From: Shigella phage SSP1
Sequence record: KY963424
Direction: 5' to 3' (one strand)
Length of the DNA stretch: 64,000 nt
In this document: one piece after another, positions 31,294 to 57,624 of the stretch
Position numbering within the stretch: the first letter of the stretch is position 1
How the letters are laid out: each line of letters begins with the position of its first letter
Translations under genes and position numbers: made by a program
Notes under the pieces: generated by a model
Told to the model about the DNA's origin: nothing
The model's database searches: none
Seen by the model: only the letters and a program-made list of their open reading frames with translations

Positions 31294-31790
31294 AACAATA
31301 CTCCTGTATTGATTAATCGAAATCTTTTCTTTAGGACTATTCAGAAAGAATAGAACAACTATTACTACTATTTACGTAAACATCAATTATCATCAAACAA
31401 TATGAATAAGTTATCATATCTCAGTGCTGTGCTCTCTTCGCTCATATACAGAATAGAACCTAGGTCATTGGCCGCTAAGCCGATTCTATTTGTCCTCACT
31501 ATCCTATTGGTAGGTGACTACTGTACGTGCCGCCATTCGCTGCTCTTTTCGTTCGCACCCCCATATAAAGCTCTGCCTATATAACGAGCTAAATATGCAC
31601 GGTTTGGATTTACCTTTCCGAATTCAGGGTACACAGATCACTTAATTGAAGATTAACTAATGCAATATAAACACTAGTAATAGTTAAAACAACCCTTAAT
31701 GGGGCAGCCTAACTGTTCCGTATCGCGGATTGTAAACAAGAAAAATTAGCAAAATCAATTTTTACTAATGTCTCTCAATTCAATATAAAT

Positions 31791-31819
31791 ATTATATCAA
31801 GATTTTGGGCATCCTGCAA
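31791..31819 (-). promoter_or_regulatory. Early promoter (TTGCAG-17-TATAAT)
   Basis: Reverse complement TTTTACTTGCAGGATGCCCAAAATCTTGATATAAT; followed by about 480 nt leader before the 929-aa gene. Confidence 0.5.
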
Positions 31820-31913
31820 GTAAAATTTTCCGGATGGTGCTATCATTGGTCTTGAGTACGGGTAAAACCGAGCCAAAATGACTCGGTAATCAGAGTTCAG
31901 CCAATAAAAATCA

Positions 31914-32303
31914 TTAGTCATTTAATCCCGGAACATAGATCCCAACACGGTTTAATTGTTCTTTAGCTTCTTTGAGAATATCTGGAGTGTACTCCCAAAT
32001 ATCATCTTCCACCTGTAAAAGATGGGGCGAACAACCGTCATCCGGCACACGGCATATGGCCAAACCACGTGGGTGGAACAAAGAGAAATTTAGGGCAACA
32101 ATTAAACCCATAGCAGACAATTCATTCCAATCCAATTCCCATTCCCCCGCGTAGCCGGATAGGAAAACACCAACACAGGGATCATCTATTTGCTGCTCCG
32201 GAAAAGTGAAGGAGGCTTGTCTTACCCCCAACCAACGTTGTAGCAGCTTCTCCGCACGTTTCACCAAACTAGGATCAATCTGACGCCAATATACTTGTTC
32301 CAT
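31914..32303 (-). CDS. Hypothetical protein, paralog A (129 aa)
   Basis: Shares ...GxxExxxxELxxMGLxxALNxxLF...VPGL(N/T) architecture with adjacent ORF. Confidence 0.55.
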   Translation of the reverse strand: MEQVYWRQIDPSLVKRAEKLLQRWLGVRQASFTFPEQQIDDPCVGVFLSGYAGEWELDWNELSAMGLIVALNFSLFHPRGLAICRVPDDGCSPHLLQVEDDIWEYTPDILKEAKEQLNRVGIYVPGLND

Positions 32304-32312
32304 TGTGCCCCC

Positions 32313-32741
32313 TTAGGCAGTTAAACCTGGGATCATATACCCGAAACGTCGAAGTTTCTGAATCCCCTCATTTACTTCTTCCGGTGAGTAAGACCAACCA
32401 TAACGTTCATTAACCTGAAAACCAGGAGATTCACTAGTTTTATAGTTAACAACGAGGCGATGCTTAGCAGGCATAAACAGCTTATAGTTTAACGCAAAAA
32501 CTAAGCCCATTTCATCTAACTCTTTCCAGCCGACAATCTCTTCAAGACCCTCCTCTACCTGAACAATTAAACCAATACAGGGAGCCTCATCAATATCATC
32601 TTTAAAAGCAAAGGAGATTTCGTTATTCTCACACCATATTTTCAAAGAGTTAATAGCCTCATTATACAGGCTAGCTGGGAGAGTACGCCAAAAGTTAACC
32701 AAAATTGGATTAGCTTCTTTAGAGAATACATTATTGAACAT
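32313..32741 (-). CDS. Hypothetical protein, paralog B (142 aa)
   Basis: Tandem paralog of 31914..32303. Confidence 0.55.
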   Translation of the reverse strand: MFNNVFSKEANPILVNFWRTLPASLYNEAINSLKIWCENNEISFAFKDDIDEAPCIGLIVQVEEGLEEIVGWKELDEMGLVFALNYKLFMPAKHRLVVNYKTSESPGFQVNERYGWSYSPEEVNEGIQKLRRFGYMIPGLTA

Positions 32742-32743
32742 AT

Positions 32744-33256
32744 TTACACCTTAAATTGTTGTAGGGCTTTACACATTTCAAGATCTGGACTAAATTCTAA
32801 CATATAGCTAACAGCTCTTAAATCTTGAAGATTTATCCCAGTTCTACCATTGACTATAACTGTTGGATACTGATACATCATAGCACCGGCATCATCCAGC
32901 ACACACCAATGTTTGAGCCTATGCTTTTCAACGAAGCGAAGAACAGAATTACCCCTAGATAATCCACCCCCAGTAAAATCCGTTGTACCAAGAAAACGAT
33001 CGATAAGGCCTAATCCGGTCATAATCTGAACGTTCTCCATCTCATTTCTGACAGAGAACCAAGATGATACTCCAACAATCATTATCGGAGAAGGACGAAT
33101 AAAGTCCTGAAAAGCCTTGAGAAGCGGTTTGAAAACCCAGTCACTTCCAAAGAAAATCTTTTCATCATCAGGTGCATGATGGTGGGAGATGCTCGAATTG
33201 AGCACCCCATCAATGTCTAGAAAAATAATTGGAATATTACTTATTTCCTGACACAT
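32744..33256 (-). CDS. HAD-superfamily hydrolase (putative nucleotidase/phosphatase)
   Basis: N-terminal IIFLDIDGVL HAD motif I (DxDGx). Confidence 0.6.
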   Translation of the reverse strand: MCQEISNIPIIFLDIDGVLNSSISHHHAPDDEKIFFGSDWVFKPLLKAFQDFIRPSPIMIVGVSSWFSVRNEMENVQIMTGLGLIDRFLGTTDFTGGGLSRGNSVLRFVEKHRLKHWCVLDDAGAMMYQYPTVIVNGRTGINLQDLRAVSYMLEFSPDLEMCKALQQFKV

Positions 33257-34052
33257 AAGGTCTACCCCCTAAATGAGCTTCTACACGAGCAATAAAATCA
33301 GTATCACTGAAAGCATCTACCGCACCTTTACTCCAGTAAGGGATACCGCGTTCTTCCAGCTGGTACATCTCACTACGAGTCATACCTTGATAGCTCGGTT
33401 CCGCCGCTAGTACACTATCATAGTAGTTAACAACCATAAGTTTCGCAGCAGTCAAATTAAGAACAGGAAATAATTCCCAATAGAAGTTAATTACTTGGTT
33501 AGAGCAACCAACCACAATGATCATATCTTGACTAGTAATACCATCAAAAACATTATACATTTCTGCATACGCTGGAGCATGCTCCCCAAAGAAGACTACA
33601 TTAGGTTTAACCCATTTATAATCATCTGGGTCAATAGAATTGTATCCTACATCAATAATCCGTTTATTGCTACTATTGTAGCTATCAGCTACAACAACCT
33701 CTTTTAAATATCCGTGAATGTGCAGAATGTCACTATGTGGAACGCCAGCACGCTCAATAAGGTCATCAACGTTGGTAGTCAAGTTTACTACTTGACCTGG
33801 GTATTGTTTATACCATTCACCAATACGCAAATGCGCAAGATTGGGTTCAACAGTTTTTAGCTCTTCACGACGCTTGTTGTAAAACATATGGGTTTTATGG
33901 TAAAAATTACCACGAAAGGCATGAATATTACACACTTCTTCTAGATCATAATCATCCCACAATGCTTTACCACTAGCAGTATCAGTACGAAAAGCTCGTA
34001 CACCACTTTCAACACTCAAACCTGCACCGCTAATAATAATTAACCTACGCAC
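33237..34052 (-). CDS. SIR2-family (sirtuin-like) NAD-dependent enzyme
   Basis: LIIISGAGLSVESGVRAFR Rossmann/NAD-binding sirtuin signature; 271 aa. Confidence 0.65.
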   Translation of the reverse strand: MRRLIIISGAGLSVESGVRAFRTDTASGKALWDDYDLEEVCNIHAFRGNFYHKTHMFYNKRREELKTVEPNLAHLRIGEWYKQYPGQVVNLTTNVDDLIERAGVPHSDILHIHGYLKEVVVADSYNSSNKRIIDVGYNSIDPDDYKWVKPNVVFFGEHAPAYAEMYNVFDGITSQDMIIVVGCSNQVINFYWELFPVLNLTAAKLMVVNYYDSVLAAEPSYQGMTRSEMYQLEERGIPYWSKGAVDAFSDTDFIARVEAHLGGRPYVSGNK

Positions 34053-34246
34053 TATACGATTCCTCGCTTAAATCCTTCGATAATATTTCGGAGTAAAATT
34101 GCTTCCTCCGGGCGTACCTTTTCTTGCTTAATAAGCATATCCAATCCAGCAATACAACTAGCTACACCAGCATTATAACCAGAGTTCCATTGCTCAATAA
34201 GCATGTTTTCTAGATTACTTTTTAGACTCTGATTCAAGAAGTCCAT
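34052..34246 (-). CDS. Hypothetical protein (64 aa)
   Basis: Small ORF. Confidence 0.35.
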   Translation of the reverse strand: MDFLNQSLKSNLENMLIEQWNSGYNAGVASCIAGLDMLIKQEKVRPEEAILLRNIIEGFKRGIV

Positions 34247-34418
34247 AAAGTTTCTCCTCTAGTTCCATAACACGATTTTCATAAGAAGCACGCAACTTTT
34301 CAATTGCCAGCGCACGCACTGTAACCTCATTAGAATTAATAGCTAACTGGGCCAGGTCTTCTGTTTCCATACGTCCGTTGTAAATTAAGCGATATTTAAG
34401 ATGTTTTACGTTTTTCAT
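34215..34418 (-). CDS. Hypothetical protein (67 aa)
   Basis: Small ORF. Confidence 0.35.
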   Translation of the reverse strand: MKNVKHLKYRLIYNGRMETEDLAQLAINSNEVTVRALAIEKLRASYENRVMELEEKLYGLLESESKK

Positions 34419-34427
34419 TCTTGTTCC

Positions 34428-34709
34428 TTAGTTCTGTACTGTAAACTCATTCTTATCACAGTGAGCATAATAATACCCATACATACGATAAATTTTCACA
34501 GCCTTAGTAGACCCCTTCGATTCTTCATAATCAATCCAGAGCCACTTGTCTTTACCTACATAATGTACCCGAAACTTCTTAACTTTCTTATCATTCCATG
34601 TTGCAACAACACGACGATAATCAAATCCACCCAACCAATCTAGAGCCTTACGTTCTTCACTAGGCTCTCCAAGATGGGAGACATCTACTTTAGGAAGCAA
34701 CTCGCTCAT
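34428..34709 (-). CDS. Hypothetical protein (93 aa)
   Basis: ORF downstream of early promoter at 34738..34766. Confidence 0.45.
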   Translation of the reverse strand: MSELLPKVDVSHLGEPSEERKALDWLGGFDYRRVVATWNDKKVKKFRVHYVGKDKWLWIDYEESKGSTKAVKIYRMYGYYYAHCDKNEFTVQN

Positions 34710-34766: not shown

Positions 34767-34808
34767 ATAAAATAAAAGCCAGGTCGACTAGCAACCCGGC
34801 TGATTAGC

Positions 34809-36683
34809 TTATTTAGCTCGAATATCCTGATGTTTCACTCTGCCCATAACCTCGTGCTGTTTGCCGGGGTTAAATGGACGAGCACCCGGATTTCCAAGAT
34901 ACCCACAAACTCGACGAGTTACCTCAAGAGTTTCGGGGTCATGATTACCACAGATAGGGCACTTAAATCCATCTTCGGATGCTATTGTTTCACCTAAGAA
35001 TCCACATTTACCGCAAGAATCCACTGGAGTATTAATACCGAAGTAATGAACTTTACTAGCAGCATAATTAATAACCCATTCCAGTGCATCTGGGAATCGT
35101 TTCATATCTGGTAGTTCTACATAGGAAATGCACCCACCAGAAGCAATCGGAGTGAAATTAGATTCATAATCAAATTTCACGTTAGGAGCAACTTTACGTT
35201 CTACATCAAGGTGGTGAGAGTTAGTGTAGTATCCTTTGGACAGAATATCTTCATGCTCCGGGAAATATTCGCGGTCTAGACGACAAAAACGGTCACATAG
35301 GGATTCTGATGGTGTAGCATACAGGCTATAACCTAATTTAGTTTCTTCCTTCTTCTGATCGACTCTATCCCGCATGTACTGCAATACACGCTGAACAAAC
35401 TTGATGCAGGTCTCGGACATTGTGTCTACATCTTTGCCAAACATAAACTGTAGCATTTCATGGCAACCAATATACCCTAGAGATACAGAAGCACGGTTAT
35501 AGAAATGATCGAATACATACTCATCCGGCTCCAAGCGTAACCCAAAGGCTCCTGACATATAGAGGATGGGTGCAGCTTTAGCTTGAATGTATTTTAAGCG
35601 ATCAACTCTCCACTCCAATGCTTTTAACGCTGTATCCACACGTAGCTCAAGCAAATCAAAGAATAGATCAATATTTCCTTCAGCTTCGATAGCAATTCTA
35701 GGCAAGTTTACAGAAACAACACCTAAGTTATTACGACCGGCAGTTTCACCATCTTCTGTAGCAGCTAGGAATGAACGGCAGCCCATAGAAACTTTATAGT
35801 CACCAGTAACTTCCACAACCTTATCATAGCTGATATAATCTGGATACATACGTTCAGCAGTACATTTCATAGCTAACTTCTTGATGTCATAATTAACATC
35901 TCCTGGTTTCATATTTACGCCATCACGAAGTACAAATACCAGTTTCGGGAAGATAGCTGTACGTTTATTGATACCTAAACCATCCATGCGTACTTTCAGT
36001 ATTGCTTTCTGTACTAGACGTGCTTCCCAAGAAGTTCCTAGACCAAAACCAAAGGTAATAAATGGACTCTGCCCATTAGAGTTGAACATGGTATTGATTT
36101 CATATTCTAAACCCTGACAAGCGTCATAGACTTCTTTTTCAGTCATCTCCGTAGCCATTACGGATGCTTTGGCTTCATCCTTAGTCCAACGTTTTGCAAA
36201 CGCATGATTTTTGTCATAGGATTTACGAACATAAGGGGCTAATACTTCATCAAGGCGATCTACAGAAGTACCACCATACTGATGGGAGCTAACCTGAGTG
36301 ATAATCTGAGCAGTAATAGCCGCCGCAGTAGTGATAGAGTTTGGAGTGCTAATTTCAGCATTACCAACCTTCATGCCATTCTTCAACATATCTTCCAGGG
36401 CCACCAGACAACAGTTAGTCATGCCTAATGCAGCATAATCAGCATCATGGAAATGAATATCCCCAATCATATGAGCATTTCGAATCTGAATTGGCATTTC
36501 TTCTAGAATTAGATACTTACTCAACTCACCTGCAAGCATATCCCTTTGTGTAGGGAAACGTTCTGAGGGTTTATTGGCATTATTAAATAGCAGTTCTTCA
36601 TCTGCTGACCCTTCGATAATCTCTTTGCAGTTTCTAATTAACGCCTGCATTTCTTTATACTTTAGTTCTTCATTACGATTCAT
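34809..36683 (-). CDS. nrdD: Anaerobic ribonucleoside-triphosphate reductase (class III)
   Basis: 624 aa; C-terminal glycyl-radical motif RVCGYLG and Cys4 zinc site CGKCGF...CPICG. Confidence 0.9.
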   Translation of the reverse strand: MNRNEELKYKEMQALIRNCKEIIEGSADEELLFNNANKPSERFPTQRDMLAGELSKYLILEEMPIQIRNAHMIGDIHFHDADYAALGMTNCCLVALEDMLKNGMKVGNAEISTPNSITTAAAITAQIITQVSSHQYGGTSVDRLDEVLAPYVRKSYDKNHAFAKRWTKDEAKASVMATEMTEKEVYDACQGLEYEINTMFNSNGQSPFITFGFGLGTSWEARLVQKAILKVRMDGLGINKRTAIFPKLVFVLRDGVNMKPGDVNYDIKKLAMKCTAERMYPDYISYDKVVEVTGDYKVSMGCRSFLAATEDGETAGRNNLGVVSVNLPRIAIEAEGNIDLFFDLLELRVDTALKALEWRVDRLKYIQAKAAPILYMSGAFGLRLEPDEYVFDHFYNRASVSLGYIGCHEMLQFMFGKDVDTMSETCIKFVQRVLQYMRDRVDQKKEETKLGYSLYATPSESLCDRFCRLDREYFPEHEDILSKGYYTNSHHLDVERKVAPNVKFDYESNFTPIASGGCISYVELPDMKRFPDALEWVINYAASKVHYFGINTPVDSCGKCGFLGETIASEDGFKCPICGNHDPETLEVTRRVCGYLGNPGARPFNPGKQHEVMGRVKHQDIRAK

Positions 36684-36876: not shown

Positions 36877-37368
36877 ATGAACACTGAAATAACACAAGAC
36901 CTACTAAGAACTTACTTTGACTATAAAGATGGAGAATTGTTTTACAAACCAACTTATAAAACCCCTGCAGGAAGAATATCCAAAAAAGCAGGTAAATCCG
37001 CCAGACTAACTCCGAGTAACGGGTACTATCGTATAAATGTACCAAGAATAGGTGTACAGAAAGAACATAGGATGATTTTCCTATATCATGAAGGATACCT
37101 ACCAGAAGTAGTAGATCATATTGATAGGGATAAGGAAAATAATAGGATAGAGAACCTTAGGGCATCTAATCTTCAGGACAACGCTATTAATCGCTCCATA
37201 AGTAAGAGTAACACCTCTGGCATTGTGGGTGTCCATTATGATGAATCGTATGGTAAGTGGGTTGTAACGTATAGGGGTAAGTACTTTGGAAGATTTGATA
37301 CCAAAGAAGAAGCTGCCGAAGTTAATGCTAATGTTCGTGCCCTTGATCAAACCCGTATAAATAGTTGA
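36877..37368 (+). CDS. HNH homing endonuclease with AP2 DNA-binding domain
   Basis: VDHIDRDKENNRIENLRASNLQDNAIN (HNH) followed by GVHYDESYGKWVVTYRGKYFGRFDTKEEAA (AP2-like). Confidence 0.75.
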   Translation: MNTEITQDLLRTYFDYKDGELFYKPTYKTPAGRISKKAGKSARLTPSNGYYRINVPRIGVQKEHRMIFLYHEGYLPEVVDHIDRDKENNRIENLRASNLQDNAINRSISKSNTSGIVGVHYDESYGKWVVTYRGKYFGRFDTKEEAAEVNANVRALDQTRINS

Positions 37369-57078: not shown

Positions 57079-57624
57079 ATGCACAATAAGTTAATAAATG
57101 AGCTTCAAAAAAGACAAATAATAACAAAAACTAAGGAGTTTGATATAACTCCAGATTTAATAGTTGAATGTTCAAAAGTTTACTTAGAATTAAGTAACAC
57201 AAAAGCTAAGAAAGTCTCTTTAGGGGATCTTAGATATAACGTTAAACTATTGTGCTTATCATTAATTAAATTTAAACAGGAAAATAAACTTGCTATAAAA
57301 GAAGGCTTCATATATTTTATAGCAAATAAGGCCTGGCCCAATTATTTTAAGATTGGTATGTCAGCTAACCCAAAGAAACGCTTAGCGAACTATCAAACAT
57401 ATAGCCCCTTTAGGGATTATACAATGCTACACTGGTCTTTCTGGTTTGATAGAAAGGAAGGTGAAAAGTTTGTCCATAGTCTCTATCATGATAGAGATCA
57501 TGAATGGGTTAAGTTGCCTCAAAGAAAACTAAATAAAATATTTGAACAAATTAATAAACTTTCTGGTTTGGAACATTTAGTACAGAAAGTTAATAGAGAA
57601 ATAGTTAATGCACCTATCGTCTAA
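57079..57624 (+). CDS. T5orf172/GIY-YIG-like domain protein (mobile-element-type)
   Basis: GFIYFIANKAWPNYFKIGMSANPKKRLANYQTYSP resembles the T5orf172 (GIY-YIG-related) signature; AT-rich codon usage; stop overlaps tRNA-Glu 5' end. Confidence 0.55.
   Translation: MHNKLINELQKRQIITKTKEFDITPDLIVECSKVYLELSNTKAKKVSLGDLRYNVKLLCLSLIKFKQENKLAIKEGFIYFIANKAWPNYFKIGMSANPKKRLANYQTYSPFRDYTMLHWSFWFDRKEGEKFVHSLYHDRDHEWVKLPQRKLNKIFEQINKLSGLEHLVQKVNREIVNAPIV

What the first reader, a model, noticed from the sequence alone, without database searches (positions are those of the whole stretch)
31914..32741. Tandem paralogous small proteins
Two adjacent ORFs (129 and 142 aa) share a conserved core (...G(E/W)xELDxxExxxMGLxxALNxxLFxP...(V/M)IPGL) but differ at the N-terminus. 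Local duplication and divergence is typical of anti-defence or host-takeover genes under diversifying selection.
Basis: seen in the sequence. Interest (0 to 1): 0.35.

Follow-up and report, generated by a model that had tools for sequence, protein, structure and literature searches.

The report
Conserved T5 early paralog pair (DUF7415)
Two neighbouring small genes of a T5-like phage are true ancient duplicates of a widespread phage protein family of unknown function. They are conserved rather than fast-evolving, so they look like a fixed part of the phage's replication and nucleotide-supply gene block, not an arms-race locus.

Summary
Two minus-strand ORFs, A (31914-32303, 129 aa) and B (32313-32741, 142 aa), are paralogs: 32% identity over 124 aa, E=7e-21. 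The similarity runs along the whole length, not only a core.

The window is a Tequintavirus. B is the ortholog of T5.106 and A of T5.107. Both belong to Pfam DUF7415 and PHROG 2502, with no known function.

The "diversifying selection" reading fails:
- Median dN/dS is 0.11 for A and 0.08 for B, with no local window above 0.54.
- The B-then-A pair is fixed in about 520 T5-like genomes.
- The A/B split predates the Sugarlandvirus/Markadamsvirinae divergence (bootstrap 494-497 of 500).

A keeps the canonical DUF7415 domain (63.8 bits). B's copy is degenerate (16.9 bits) yet strongly constrained.

Elsewhere the ~50-aa domain is fused to thymidylate kinase, a MazZ-like dNTP pyrophosphohydrolase and ASCH/DUF3850. 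It lies between nrdD and nrdG or between nrdA and nrdB. It also abuts the P2 gpA replication initiator in 23 of 80 viral loci.

A published CRISPRi screen calls T5.107 one of 17 fitness genes in T5, with marginal statistics.

My best guess is an acidic, non-catalytic protein-binding module serving replication and dNTP supply. No partner is known. The finding is ordinary, with modest leads.

The parts
32313..32741 (-). Gene B, 142 aa; ortholog of T5.106 (YP_006934). Divergent (B-type) DUF7415 protein.
   Evidence: ORF. Pfam PF24187 at 123 bits and phrog_2502. 100% identical to proteins of deposited Salmonella phages. T5 synteny. AF2 model pLDDT 86.9.
31914..32303 (-). Gene A, 129 aa; ortholog of T5.107 (YP_006935). 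Canonical (A-type) DUF7415 protein.
   Evidence: ORF. Pfam PF24187 at 109 bits and phrog_2502. 99% identical to SP01. T5 synteny. T5.107 is called 'Fit' in the CRISPRi-ART screen (PMC11879866 supplements).
31989..32135 (-). Canonical DUF7415 domain of A (residues 57-105: LDWNELSAMGLIVALNFSLFHPRGLAICRVPDDGCSPHLLQVEDDIWEY).
   Evidence: Scores 63.8 bits (E = 1.4e-20) against an HMM built only from 93 single-domain family members. Scores 53.9 bits against Pfam when scanned alone. Keeps the family's invariant W, N, S, G-L, N, H-P, G-L, R and G-x-S positions.
32406..32537 (-). Degenerate DUF7415 domain of B (residues 69-112: IVGWKELDEMGLVFALNYKLFMPAKHRLVVNYKTSESPGFQVNE).
   Evidence: Scores only 16.9 bits (E = 6e-6) against the single-domain HMM, but 55.1 bits against Pfam. 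Family-invariant H is replaced by M, G by H, R by N, G by S and S by D. This is nevertheless the most constrained stretch of B, with pN/pS 0.03-0.05.
32142..32297 (-). N-terminal half of A (residues 3-54). Pfam scores it as a second DUF7415 match.
   Evidence: Pfam 59.8 bits when scanned alone. Not detected by the single-domain HMM (E >0.4). Profile-profile comparison is weak but in register (E = 0.012). An internal repeat is plausible but not proven.
32547..32699 (-). N-terminal half of B (residues 15-65). Pfam scores it as a second DUF7415 match.
   Evidence: Pfam 71.9 bits when scanned alone. Not detected by the single-domain HMM. The AF2 model shows a helix followed by a beta-hairpin, as in the C-terminal half.
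32304..32312 (-). 9-nt B-A spacer GGGGGCACA, the Shine-Dalgarno sequence for A. B and A are in the same frame.
   Evidence: Read from the sequence. The same 9-nt spacing is found in nearly all Markadamsvirinae loci.
32747..32752 (-). Shine-Dalgarno AAGGTG for B, lying inside the last codons of the upstream HAD gene. The HAD stop codon is 2 nt before B's ATG.
   Evidence: Read from the sequence.
31863..31887 (-). Intrinsic-terminator-like hairpin plus U-run, 27 nt after A's stop codon. It marks the end of the operon.
   Evidence: 9-bp stem, -12.6 kcal/mol, z = -2.93 against shuffles. Hairpin invariant in T5, phiR2-01 and an Epseptimavirus. T5 carries an annotated putative terminator at the same place.
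32744..34709 (-). Upstream cistrons of the same operon: a 93-aa ORF (34428-34709), a 67-aa ORF (34215-34418), a 64-aa ORF (34052-34246), Sir2-family (33237-34052) and HAD_SAK_2 phosphatase (32744-33256). A terminator-like site after nrdD (34778-34800) precedes them.
   Evidence: ORFs. Pfam SIR2 at 89.9 bits and HAD_SAK_2 at 72.1 bits. Terminator-like site. T5 annotation of a promoter after the nrdD terminator.

Best explanation
Shown. A and B are the orthologs of phage T5 genes T5.107 and T5.106. They are the last two translationally coupled cistrons of an operon that starts after nrdD and ends at a conserved terminator, just upstream of the origin-binding helicase gene. They are ancient tandem paralogs of the DUF7415 family. 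Both are acidic (pI 4.6-4.8) and have a confidently predicted alpha/beta fold with no solved structural neighbour. Each has an N-terminal helix-plus-hairpin half and a C-terminal DUF7415 domain. After the duplication A kept the family's canonical C-terminal domain. B lost its invariant polar residues but remains under equally strong purifying selection, which points to subfunctionalisation rather than decay or an arms race.

Inferred. The ~50-residue DUF7415 unit is a non-catalytic, protein-binding or oligomerising module. Phages attach it to, or encode it beside, enzymes of DNA-precursor supply (ribonucleotide reductases, thymidylate kinase, a MazZ-like dNTP pyrophosphohydrolase, Nudix, ASCH/DUF3850) and replication initiators (P2 gpA, the T5 origin-binding protein). 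In T5-like phages the stand-alone A and B proteins most likely work together, as one canonical and one degenerate subunit. I propose they dock onto a basic, nucleic-acid- or nucleotide-handling partner of phage or host origin, and so support phage DNA replication or dNTP supply. A would be the functionally dominant partner.

Confidence. The descriptive part is secure (about 0.9). Assignment to the replication / nucleotide-supply sphere is about 0.5. The specific adaptor and heteromer mechanism is about 0.25.
For: - **Identity and paralogy.** BLASTP E = 7e-21. Pfam and PHROG matches. T5 synteny and locus tags.
- **Operon structure.** Shine-Dalgarno sequences and the 2-nt and 9-nt spacers. A conserved terminator after A. 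A terminator-like site after nrdD.
- **Purifying selection.** Median omega is 0.114 for A and 0.077 for B. No window exceeds 0.54.
- **Fixed, ancient pair.** 524 records and 1035 places. The same B-then-A order occurs in Markadamsvirinae, Sugarlandvirus and a further metagenomic lineage. Bootstrap support for the A/B split is 494-497 of 500. Single-copy lineages keep the canonical domain.
- **Asymmetry.** Against a single-domain HMM, A-type C-halves score 45-80 bits and B-type 4-22 bits.
- **Acidity.** pI is 4.1-4.9 for nearly all family members. This argues against direct nucleic-acid binding and for protein binding.
- **Fusions.** Thymidylate kinase, PF04447 dATP/dGTP pyrophosphohydrolase and DUF3850/ASCH, the last in both domain orders, plus DUF551. 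They recur on several contigs.
- **Neighbourhood.** The domain lies between nrdD and nrdG in two T4-like genera. It lies downstream of nrdD in all Demerecviridae lineages examined. It lies between nrdA and nrdB in L064, 1.4 kb upstream of nrdA in L118, and near thy/frd plus a HAD homolog in Aeh1-like phages. It sits next to a Nudix gene in Slopekvirus.
- **P2 gpA link.** Of 80 diverse viral loci, 39 have a P2 gpA-like initiator on the same strand and within 2 kb. In 23 of these the two genes are directly adjacent, in both orders.
- **Fitness.** T5.107 is one of 17 'Fit' genes in the T5 CRISPRi-ART screen (fitness -2.90, p = 0.0215, 5 guides). T5.106 scored -3.28, p = 0.167, 'Not Fit' (PMC11879866 supplements).
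Against: - There is no direct evidence for any binding partner, for an A-B complex, or for absence of catalysis. A linked B-A model could not be run.
- The family has about ten invariant or near-invariant polar residues in about 50 positions (N, N, H, S, R, D, Y). That is more than a pure interaction module usually needs, and it could mark a ligand or active site.
- Phage early regions are rich in nucleotide and replication genes anyway. Several neighbourhood observations are not phylogenetically independent: all Demerecviridae share one synteny, and many P2-like loci are related.
- In some phages the domain sits in arrays of small unknown ORFs with no metabolic neighbours.
- The CRISPRi-ART signal for T5.107 is marginal, and T5.106 was not called.
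- Within Tequintavirus, B and A alleles assort independently (B 87-100% identical, A 95-99%), so there is no sign of tight co-evolution.
- The internal-repeat idea rests on the Pfam model alone.
Confidence: 0.45

Rival explanations
1. Anti-defence or host-takeover inhibitors. On this view the acidic A and B proteins bind and neutralise a conserved host protein, for example a nucleotide- or NAD-depleting immune effector, a nuclease, or a DNA-binding protein by partial DNA mimicry. That would protect phage replication.
For: - The proteins are small, acidic early products (pI 4.1-4.9). A-type proteins carry a variable-length acidic loop, for example EEEDDDPDEVPEDDPG in phiR2-01.
- They share an operon with a Sir2-family protein.
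- Single-domain relatives sit in arrays of small unknown early ORFs. In P2-like phages they lie at the gpA end of the genome.
- The family occurs in unrelated phage types (T5-like, T4-like, P2-like) that infect gammaproteobacteria. That fits a conserved host target.
- The fold is novel.
Against: - omega is about 0.1, with no variable patch above 0.54.
- Copy number and position are fixed, as for core genes, across Demerecviridae.
- Fusions to metabolic enzymes (Tmk, MazZ-like, ASCH) are unusual for inhibitors.
- The T5.107 knock-down effect was seen on a laboratory E. coli host.
- The one 'anti-CBASS Acb1' label in a database record is a misannotation.
- PADLOC gave no hit, though that library holds defence proteins, not anti-defence proteins.
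Confidence: 0.22
2. A small ligand-binding or catalytic domain. On this view the canonical DUF7415 unit binds or processes a nucleotide-like small molecule, such as a dNTP, NAD or ADP-ribose derivative or a signalling nucleotide. It would act as a sensor or regulator, or as a minimal enzyme when dimerised. A would carry the one intact site and B would be a regulatory pseudo-subunit.
For: - The short domain has many invariant polar residues: W6, N7, N19, H24 and S39 invariant, with R32, D47 and Y52 near-invariant.
- B has lost exactly these residues, the usual pattern for an active subunit paired with a pseudo-subunit.
- The fusion partners and neighbours all handle nucleotides: Tmk, MazZ-like, ASCH, Nudix, RNR, Sir2, HAD.
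Against: - Many of the conserved residues (G, P, S, N) sit at helix caps and turns in the model and may be purely structural.
- About 50 residues is very small for a self-contained active site.
- B is as constrained as A even though it lacks these residues.
Confidence: 0.2
3. Dispensable redundant duplicates. On this view the two genes are functionally redundant leftovers of a duplication and play no important role.
For: T5.106 was 'Not Fit', and the T5.107 signal is marginal. Some Demerecviridae lineages manage with one copy.
Against: - Both copies are retained with omega of about 0.1 in more than 500 genomes and across deep lineages.
- The paralogs are only 32% identical and asymmetrically diverged. 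That is incompatible with simple redundancy or decay.
Confidence: 0.05

Closest known systems
Phage T5 genes T5.106 (YP_006934) and T5.107 (YP_006935)
   Same: They are direct orthologs: 92% (B) and 96% (A) protein identity. Order, spacing, operon and flanking genes are the same: nrdD, small ORFs, Sir2, HAD, B, A, terminator, origin-binding protein.
   Different: The window lacks the two small ORFs T5.103 and T5.104 that sit between Sir2 and HAD in T5. Otherwise there is no meaningful difference. No function has been assigned to these genes in T5. T5.107 is listed among the fitness genes 'of entirely unknown function' (PMC11879866 supplement).
Pfam PF24187 (DUF7415) / PHROG 2502, 3954, 33705, 1812
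   Same: Both proteins score far above the Pfam cut-off. A's C-terminal domain carries every invariant residue of the single-domain family.
   Different: Most family members are single-domain proteins of 60-90 aa, or fusions. The T5-type proteins are about 130-aa two-half versions. B's domain has lost the signature residues.
P2-like phage Orf91 (for example Yersinia phage L-413C orf91)
   Same: It contains a canonical DUF7415 domain, as the T5 genome annotation already notes ('similar to ORF91'). It lies directly beside a replication-initiator gene, gpA in P2 and the origin-binding protein in T5.
   Different: Orf91 is a DUF3850/ASCH plus DUF7415 fusion with one domain copy. It has no tandem paralog, and it is translationally coupled to gpA.
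Small ORF between nrdD and nrdG of T4-like Jiaodavirus and Bragavirus phages
   Same: It is a canonical DUF7415 protein encoded downstream of the anaerobic ribonucleotide reductase gene, as in T5-like phages.
   Different: It is a single-domain protein of 77-87 aa, a single gene, and sits immediately between the reductase and its activase. T5-like phages have Sir2 and HAD between nrdD and the pair.

Membership tests
Pfam PF24187 DUF7415 | HMM score at or above the gathering cut-off (27 bits) | tested here: met
   A scores 109.4 bits and B 123.0 bits, with two matched stretches each. The halves scanned separately score 59.8 and 53.9 bits (A) and 71.9 and 55.1 bits (B).
Pfam PF24187 DUF7415 | Canonical single-domain signature (IDWN..S.LGLI.RIN.EILHPLGLA..R.P.TG.S...DG.WEY) present in gene A | tested here: met
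   A residues 57-105 keep all invariant positions. They score 63.8 bits against an HMM built only from single-domain members.
Pfam PF24187 DUF7415 | Canonical single-domain signature present in gene B | tested here: not met
   In B's C-half, H is replaced by M, G by H, R by N, G by S and S by D. It scores only 16.9 bits against the single-domain HMM. B is homologous to the family but has lost the signature.
Pfam PF24187 DUF7415 | N-terminal halves are a second, internally duplicated DUF7415 repeat | tested here: inconclusive
   Pfam scores the N-halves at 60-72 bits. A single-domain HMM does not detect them (E >0.4). Profile-profile comparison gives only E = 0.012, though the alignment is in register. 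The secondary-structure pattern is similar.
PHROG 2502 | Full-length HMM match | tested here: met
   E = 2.5e-61 for A and 7.2e-63 for B, covering the whole profile.
Anti-CBASS Acb1 (PF23474), a label carried by a DUF7415 ORF in Klebsiella phage Roth90 | Match to the Acb1 (2H-phosphoesterase) profile | tested here: not met
   The labelled Roth90 ORF matches only DUF7415. The true Acb1 of that phage is a different ORF annotated 'RNA ligase' (PF23474, 160.9 bits). A and B give no Acb1 hit.
Exonuclease ('Phage exonuclease ACLAME 70'), a label in some T5-like records | Any recognisable nuclease domain or fold | tested here: not met
Tail tube protein, a label in some records | Similarity to tail tube families, or a position in the structural module | tested here: not met
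   No such family is hit. The genes lie in the replication and nucleotide-metabolism region, between nrdD and the origin-binding protein gene.
   Median omega is 0.114 (A) and 0.077 (B), with maxima of 0.37 and 0.20. The sliding-window maximum is 0.54.
   There are two copies in essentially all 524 T5-like records. One-versus-two copy differences appear only between deep lineages.
Known anti-defence protein families | Match to a curated anti-defence profile | not testable with these tools
   No anti-defence HMM library is available here. PADLOC, which holds defence systems, gave no hit.

The most novel reading that the evidence does not exclude
DUF7415 could be a widespread but unrecognised phage 'coupling' module. 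On this reading, a ~50-residue acidic domain tethers dNTP-supply enzymes (RNR, Tmk, MazZ-like, ASCH) and replication initiators (P2 gpA, T5 origin-binding protein) to a common partner that is conserved in gammaproteobacteria. T5-like phages would carry it as an obligatory heteromer of one canonical subunit (T5.107) and one degenerate subunit (T5.106), needed for efficient phage DNA replication.
Probability: 0.2. Interest if true: 0.6.

Novelty: already known. Interest (0 to 1): 0.3.

Why it matters
As it stands this is a routine result. The pair is the T5.106/T5.107 locus, which is already in Pfam and PHROGs as a family of unknown function, and the arms-race reading is refuted.

It still matters modestly, for three reasons:
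- T5.107 is one of the few T5 genes of unknown function with a measured fitness effect.
- The family is found in hundreds of T5-like, T4-like and P2-like phages, including therapeutic candidates.
- The fusion and neighbourhood pattern assembled here gives a concrete, testable direction (replication and dNTP supply) for a domain about which nothing has been published.

The analysis also flags several wrong database labels: exonuclease, tail tube protein, Acb1, and 'Sir2' for the HAD gene.

Tried and rejected
2. **AFDB fold search.** The library was not available.
4. **PDB sequence search with the family profile.** No hit even at E up to 10.
5. **NCBIfam and PADLOC.** No hits for A or B.
6. **Rfam and repeat scans of the locus and the 620-bp gap downstream.** No RNA family. 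Only short repeats of doubtful meaning.
7. **Literature.** Nothing for 'DUF7415' or T5.102-T5.107 in main texts. Papers mentioning orf91 were not about its function. HIDEN-SEQ did not cover a T5-like phage.
8. **The 48-aa ORF at 31775-31921 overlapping A's end.** Rejected as a gene. It has no Pfam hit and is absent or truncated in most related loci.
9. **Independent recent duplications in each lineage.** Rejected by the bootstrap analysis. An earlier bootstrap script timed out, and one with an uncapped distance formula gave invalid values. Neither is used.
10. **Internal tandem repeat as an established fact.** Downgraded to inconclusive after my own HMM tests failed to link the N-halves to the single-domain family.
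Full report
**What is there**

The window is a T5-like phage. The 3.2-kb stretch around the finding is 97% identical to Salmonella phage SP01 (Tequintavirus), and it matches 530 phage records.

The two ORFs are on the minus strand:
- A = 31914..32303 (129 aa)
- B = 32313..32741 (142 aa)

They are the orthologs of T5.107 and T5.106 respectively. They are the last two cistrons of a tightly packed minus-strand operon, in this order:
- a terminator-like site after nrdD (34778-34800);
- three small ORFs (93, 67 and 64 aa);
- a Sir2-family gene (33237-34052);
- a HAD_SAK_2 phosphatase gene (32744-33256);
- B, then A.

B's AAGGTG Shine-Dalgarno sequence lies in the last codons of the HAD gene. A's GGGGG Shine-Dalgarno sequence is the 9-nt B-A spacer. 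A hairpin plus U-run lies 27 nt after A's stop codon (-12.6 kcal/mol, z = -2.9). It is invariant in T5, phiR2-01 and an Epseptimavirus, and T5 carries a terminator annotation at the same place.

Downstream, after a 620-bp gap, comes the 929-aa origin-binding-protein-like helicase (T5.108 ortholog). Upstream, on the other strand, lie an HNH endonuclease, phoH and nrdA.

**Is the paralogy real?**

Yes. BLASTP gives 32% identity over 124 residues, E = 7e-21. Both proteins match Pfam DUF7415 and PHROG 2502 over their full length. The similarity extends into the N-terminal halves. B merely has a 12-residue extension that is predicted to be disordered.

**Evolutionary mode**

I collected the locus from 27 IMG/VR genomes plus annotated records and built codon alignments of 30 unique alleles.

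| Gene | Median pairwise dN/dS | Maximum |
|---|---|---|
| A | 0.114 | 0.37 |
| B | 0.077 | 0.20 |
| HAD | 0.059 | 0.186 |
| Sir2 | 0.093 | 0.263 |
| Origin-binding protein | 0.052 | 0.090 |
| NrdD | 0.018 | 0.220 |

No 12-codon window exceeds pN/pS 0.54. The most constrained stretch of B is its degenerate domain, at 0.03-0.05.

tblastn finds 1035 places in 524 phage records, which is two per genome. Order and spacing are constant.

Sugarlandvirus carries a B-like plus an A-like gene. So does another deep metagenomic T5-like lineage, in identical synteny. Pectobacterium phage DU_PP_V and one metagenomic lineage carry a single gene with a canonical domain.

A bootstrapped NJ analysis separates all A-type from all B-type proteins in 494-497 of 500 replicates. 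It recovers lineage-specific duplication in only 0-4 of 500.

The duplication is therefore old and fixed, and both copies are conserved. This is the opposite of a diversifying, copy-number-variable locus.

**Anatomy of the proteins**

A profile search of 1.84 billion representative proteins found 151 relatives. Most of them share only a ~50-residue module, which corresponds to the C-terminal half of A and B. Its consensus is IDWN..S.LGLI.RIN.EILHPLGLA..R.PETG.S...DG.WEY.

Against an HMM built only from 93 single-domain proteins, the results are:
- A's C-half scores 63.8 bits, and all A-type proteins score 45-80 bits.
- B's C-half scores 16.9 bits, and all B-type proteins score 4-22 bits.

B has replaced the invariant H, G, R, G and S residues.

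Pfam also scores the N-terminal halves as DUF7415, at 60-72 bits. My own tests do not confirm this. HMM against sequence gives E >0.4, and HMM against HMM gives E = 0.012, although that alignment is in register. I therefore call the internal repeat plausible but unproven.

Structure prediction is confident:
- AlphaFold2 gives pLDDT 86.9 for B, with the order helix, three strands, helices, two strands, helix.
- It gives pLDDT 94.4 for a single-domain member.
- BFVD returns only other DUF7415 proteins, including some from T4-like phages.

Nearly all family members are acidic, with pI 4.1-4.9.

**Clues to function**

*1. Domain fusions.* The module is fused to several partners:
- thymidylate kinase (P0092);
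- a PF04447 dATP/dGTP pyrophosphohydrolase (P0141 and P0143; the latter cluster is seen on 11 contigs);
- DUF3850/ASCH, in both domain orders (P0179 and P2-type Orf91);
- DUF551.

*2. Gene neighbourhood.* The module is encoded:
- between nrdD and nrdG in two T4-like genera;
- downstream of nrdD in every Demerecviridae lineage examined;
- between nrdA and nrdB in L064, and 1.4 kb upstream of nrdA in L118;
- near thy/frd and a HAD_SAK_2 homolog in Aeh1-like phages;
- next to a Nudix gene in Slopekvirus.

Among 80 diverse viral loci, 39 have a P2 gpA-like initiator on the same strand and within 2 kb. In 23 of these the two genes are directly adjacent: 15 downstream and 8 upstream of gpA.

*3. Fitness.* In the CRISPRi-ART screen of T5, T5.107 is one of 17 'Fit' genes, listed among those 'of entirely unknown function' (fitness -2.90, p = 0.0215, 5 guides). 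T5.106 was not called (-3.28, p = 0.167) (PMC11879866 supplements). The signal is marginal, and that screen also missed known essential functions.

*4. Counter-examples.* In some phages the gene sits among small unknown ORFs with no informative neighbours.

**Interpretation**

The well-supported statement is descriptive. This is a conserved, ancient, asymmetrically diverged pair of early genes from a widespread phage family, embedded in the replication and nucleotide-metabolism block.

The mechanistic proposal is inference from acidity, small size, lack of any catalytic fold, promiscuous fusion and recurrent neighbourhood. I propose an acidic, non-catalytic binding or oligomerisation module serving DNA replication or dNTP supply, with A as the canonical subunit and B as a degenerate partner. 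I give this roughly one chance in four as stated, and about one in two for the broader functional sphere.

Two rivals remain open:
- A conserved (not fast-evolving) host-protein inhibitor.
- A small ligand-binding or catalytic unit. The number of invariant polar residues, and their selective loss in B, make this rival a serious one.

**Comparison with what is known**

Membership of Pfam DUF7415 and PHROG 2502 is met. The canonical signature is met for A and not for B.

Three database labels failed their tests: 'exonuclease (ACLAME 70)', 'tail tube protein' and 'anti-CBASS Acb1'. No paper in the searchable library discusses DUF7415 or these T5 genes beyond the CRISPRi-ART supplement.

**Verdict**

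The locus is already known as an uncharacterised family, so interest is low to moderate. Its main value is as a pointer to a testable link with replication and nucleotide supply, and to a fitness-relevant T5 gene.

Noticed in passing
window 34809-36683 (nrdD) and loci L001, L010, L017, L019, L022, L023, L026, L029, L033: NrdD occurs in two allelic forms that are only about 60% identical at protein level. The flanking genes in the same phages are 90-100% identical. This looks like mosaic replacement of the anaerobic ribonucleotide reductase gene within Tequintavirus and Epseptimavirus.
   Followed up: no
window 33237-33256 (Sir2/HAD junction), compared with L001 and L044 (T5 57243-57601): In the window, Sir2 and the HAD gene overlap directly. 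T5, SP01 and many relatives carry an extra ~340-bp segment here with two small ORFs (T5.103 and T5.104, phrog_5116). It is a presence/absence polymorphism.
   Followed up: partly
window 32744-33256: The HAD_SAK_2 phosphatase gene (Pfam PF18143, 72 bits) is annotated 'Sir2 (NAD-dependent deacetylase)' in RefSeq and PHROG-based records (phrog_18062). This looks like a label carried over from the neighbouring gene.
   Followed up: partly
window 31294-31913: There is a 620-bp gap with no conserved ORF between gene A and the origin-binding-protein gene. T5 annotates a promoter there. The gap contains an 18-nt inverted repeat pair (31357-31374 and 31668-31685, 89% complementary, 293 nt apart) of unknown meaning, and no Rfam family.
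   Followed up: partly
window 31775-31921 (minus strand): A 48-aa ORF overlaps the 3' end of gene A and the terminator. It is absent or truncated in most related genomes and has no family hit, so it is probably not a gene.
   Followed up: yes
window 36877-37368 (plus strand): An HNH_3 + AP2-domain homing-endonuclease-like ORF sits between nrdD and phoH. An HNH endonuclease (F-TflVI) precedes nrdD in phiR2-01.
   Followed up: no
L003 (Klebsiella phage Roth90) 469-1092 and 4001-4258: The ORF labelled 'anti-CBASS protein acb1' is a DUF7415 protein. The real Acb1 (PF23474, 160.9 bits) is the ORF labelled 'RNA ligase' 3 kb upstream.
   Followed up: yes
Loci L017 and L025 (gene A alleles): Some Tequintavirus alleles of gene A carry a two-residue tandem expansion (EWEWELDW instead of EWELDW) in the linker just before the canonical domain. 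Epseptimavirus and phiR2-01 alleles have longer acidic insertions at the same spot.
   Followed up: partly
Loci L102-L125 (P2-like prophages, IMG/VR): In P2-like elements the DUF7415-containing ORF is translationally coupled to the gpA replication-initiator gene, with 3-nt gaps or 4-nt overlaps. It sits upstream in some groups and downstream in others, and its second domain varies (139-248 aa proteins).
   Followed up: partly
L126-L128 and L131 (metagenomic T5-like phages): A DUF7430 (PF24207) small protein sits between phoH and nrdA in divergent Demerecviridae-like contigs. It is another uncharacterised family in the same nucleotide-metabolism block.
   Followed up: no
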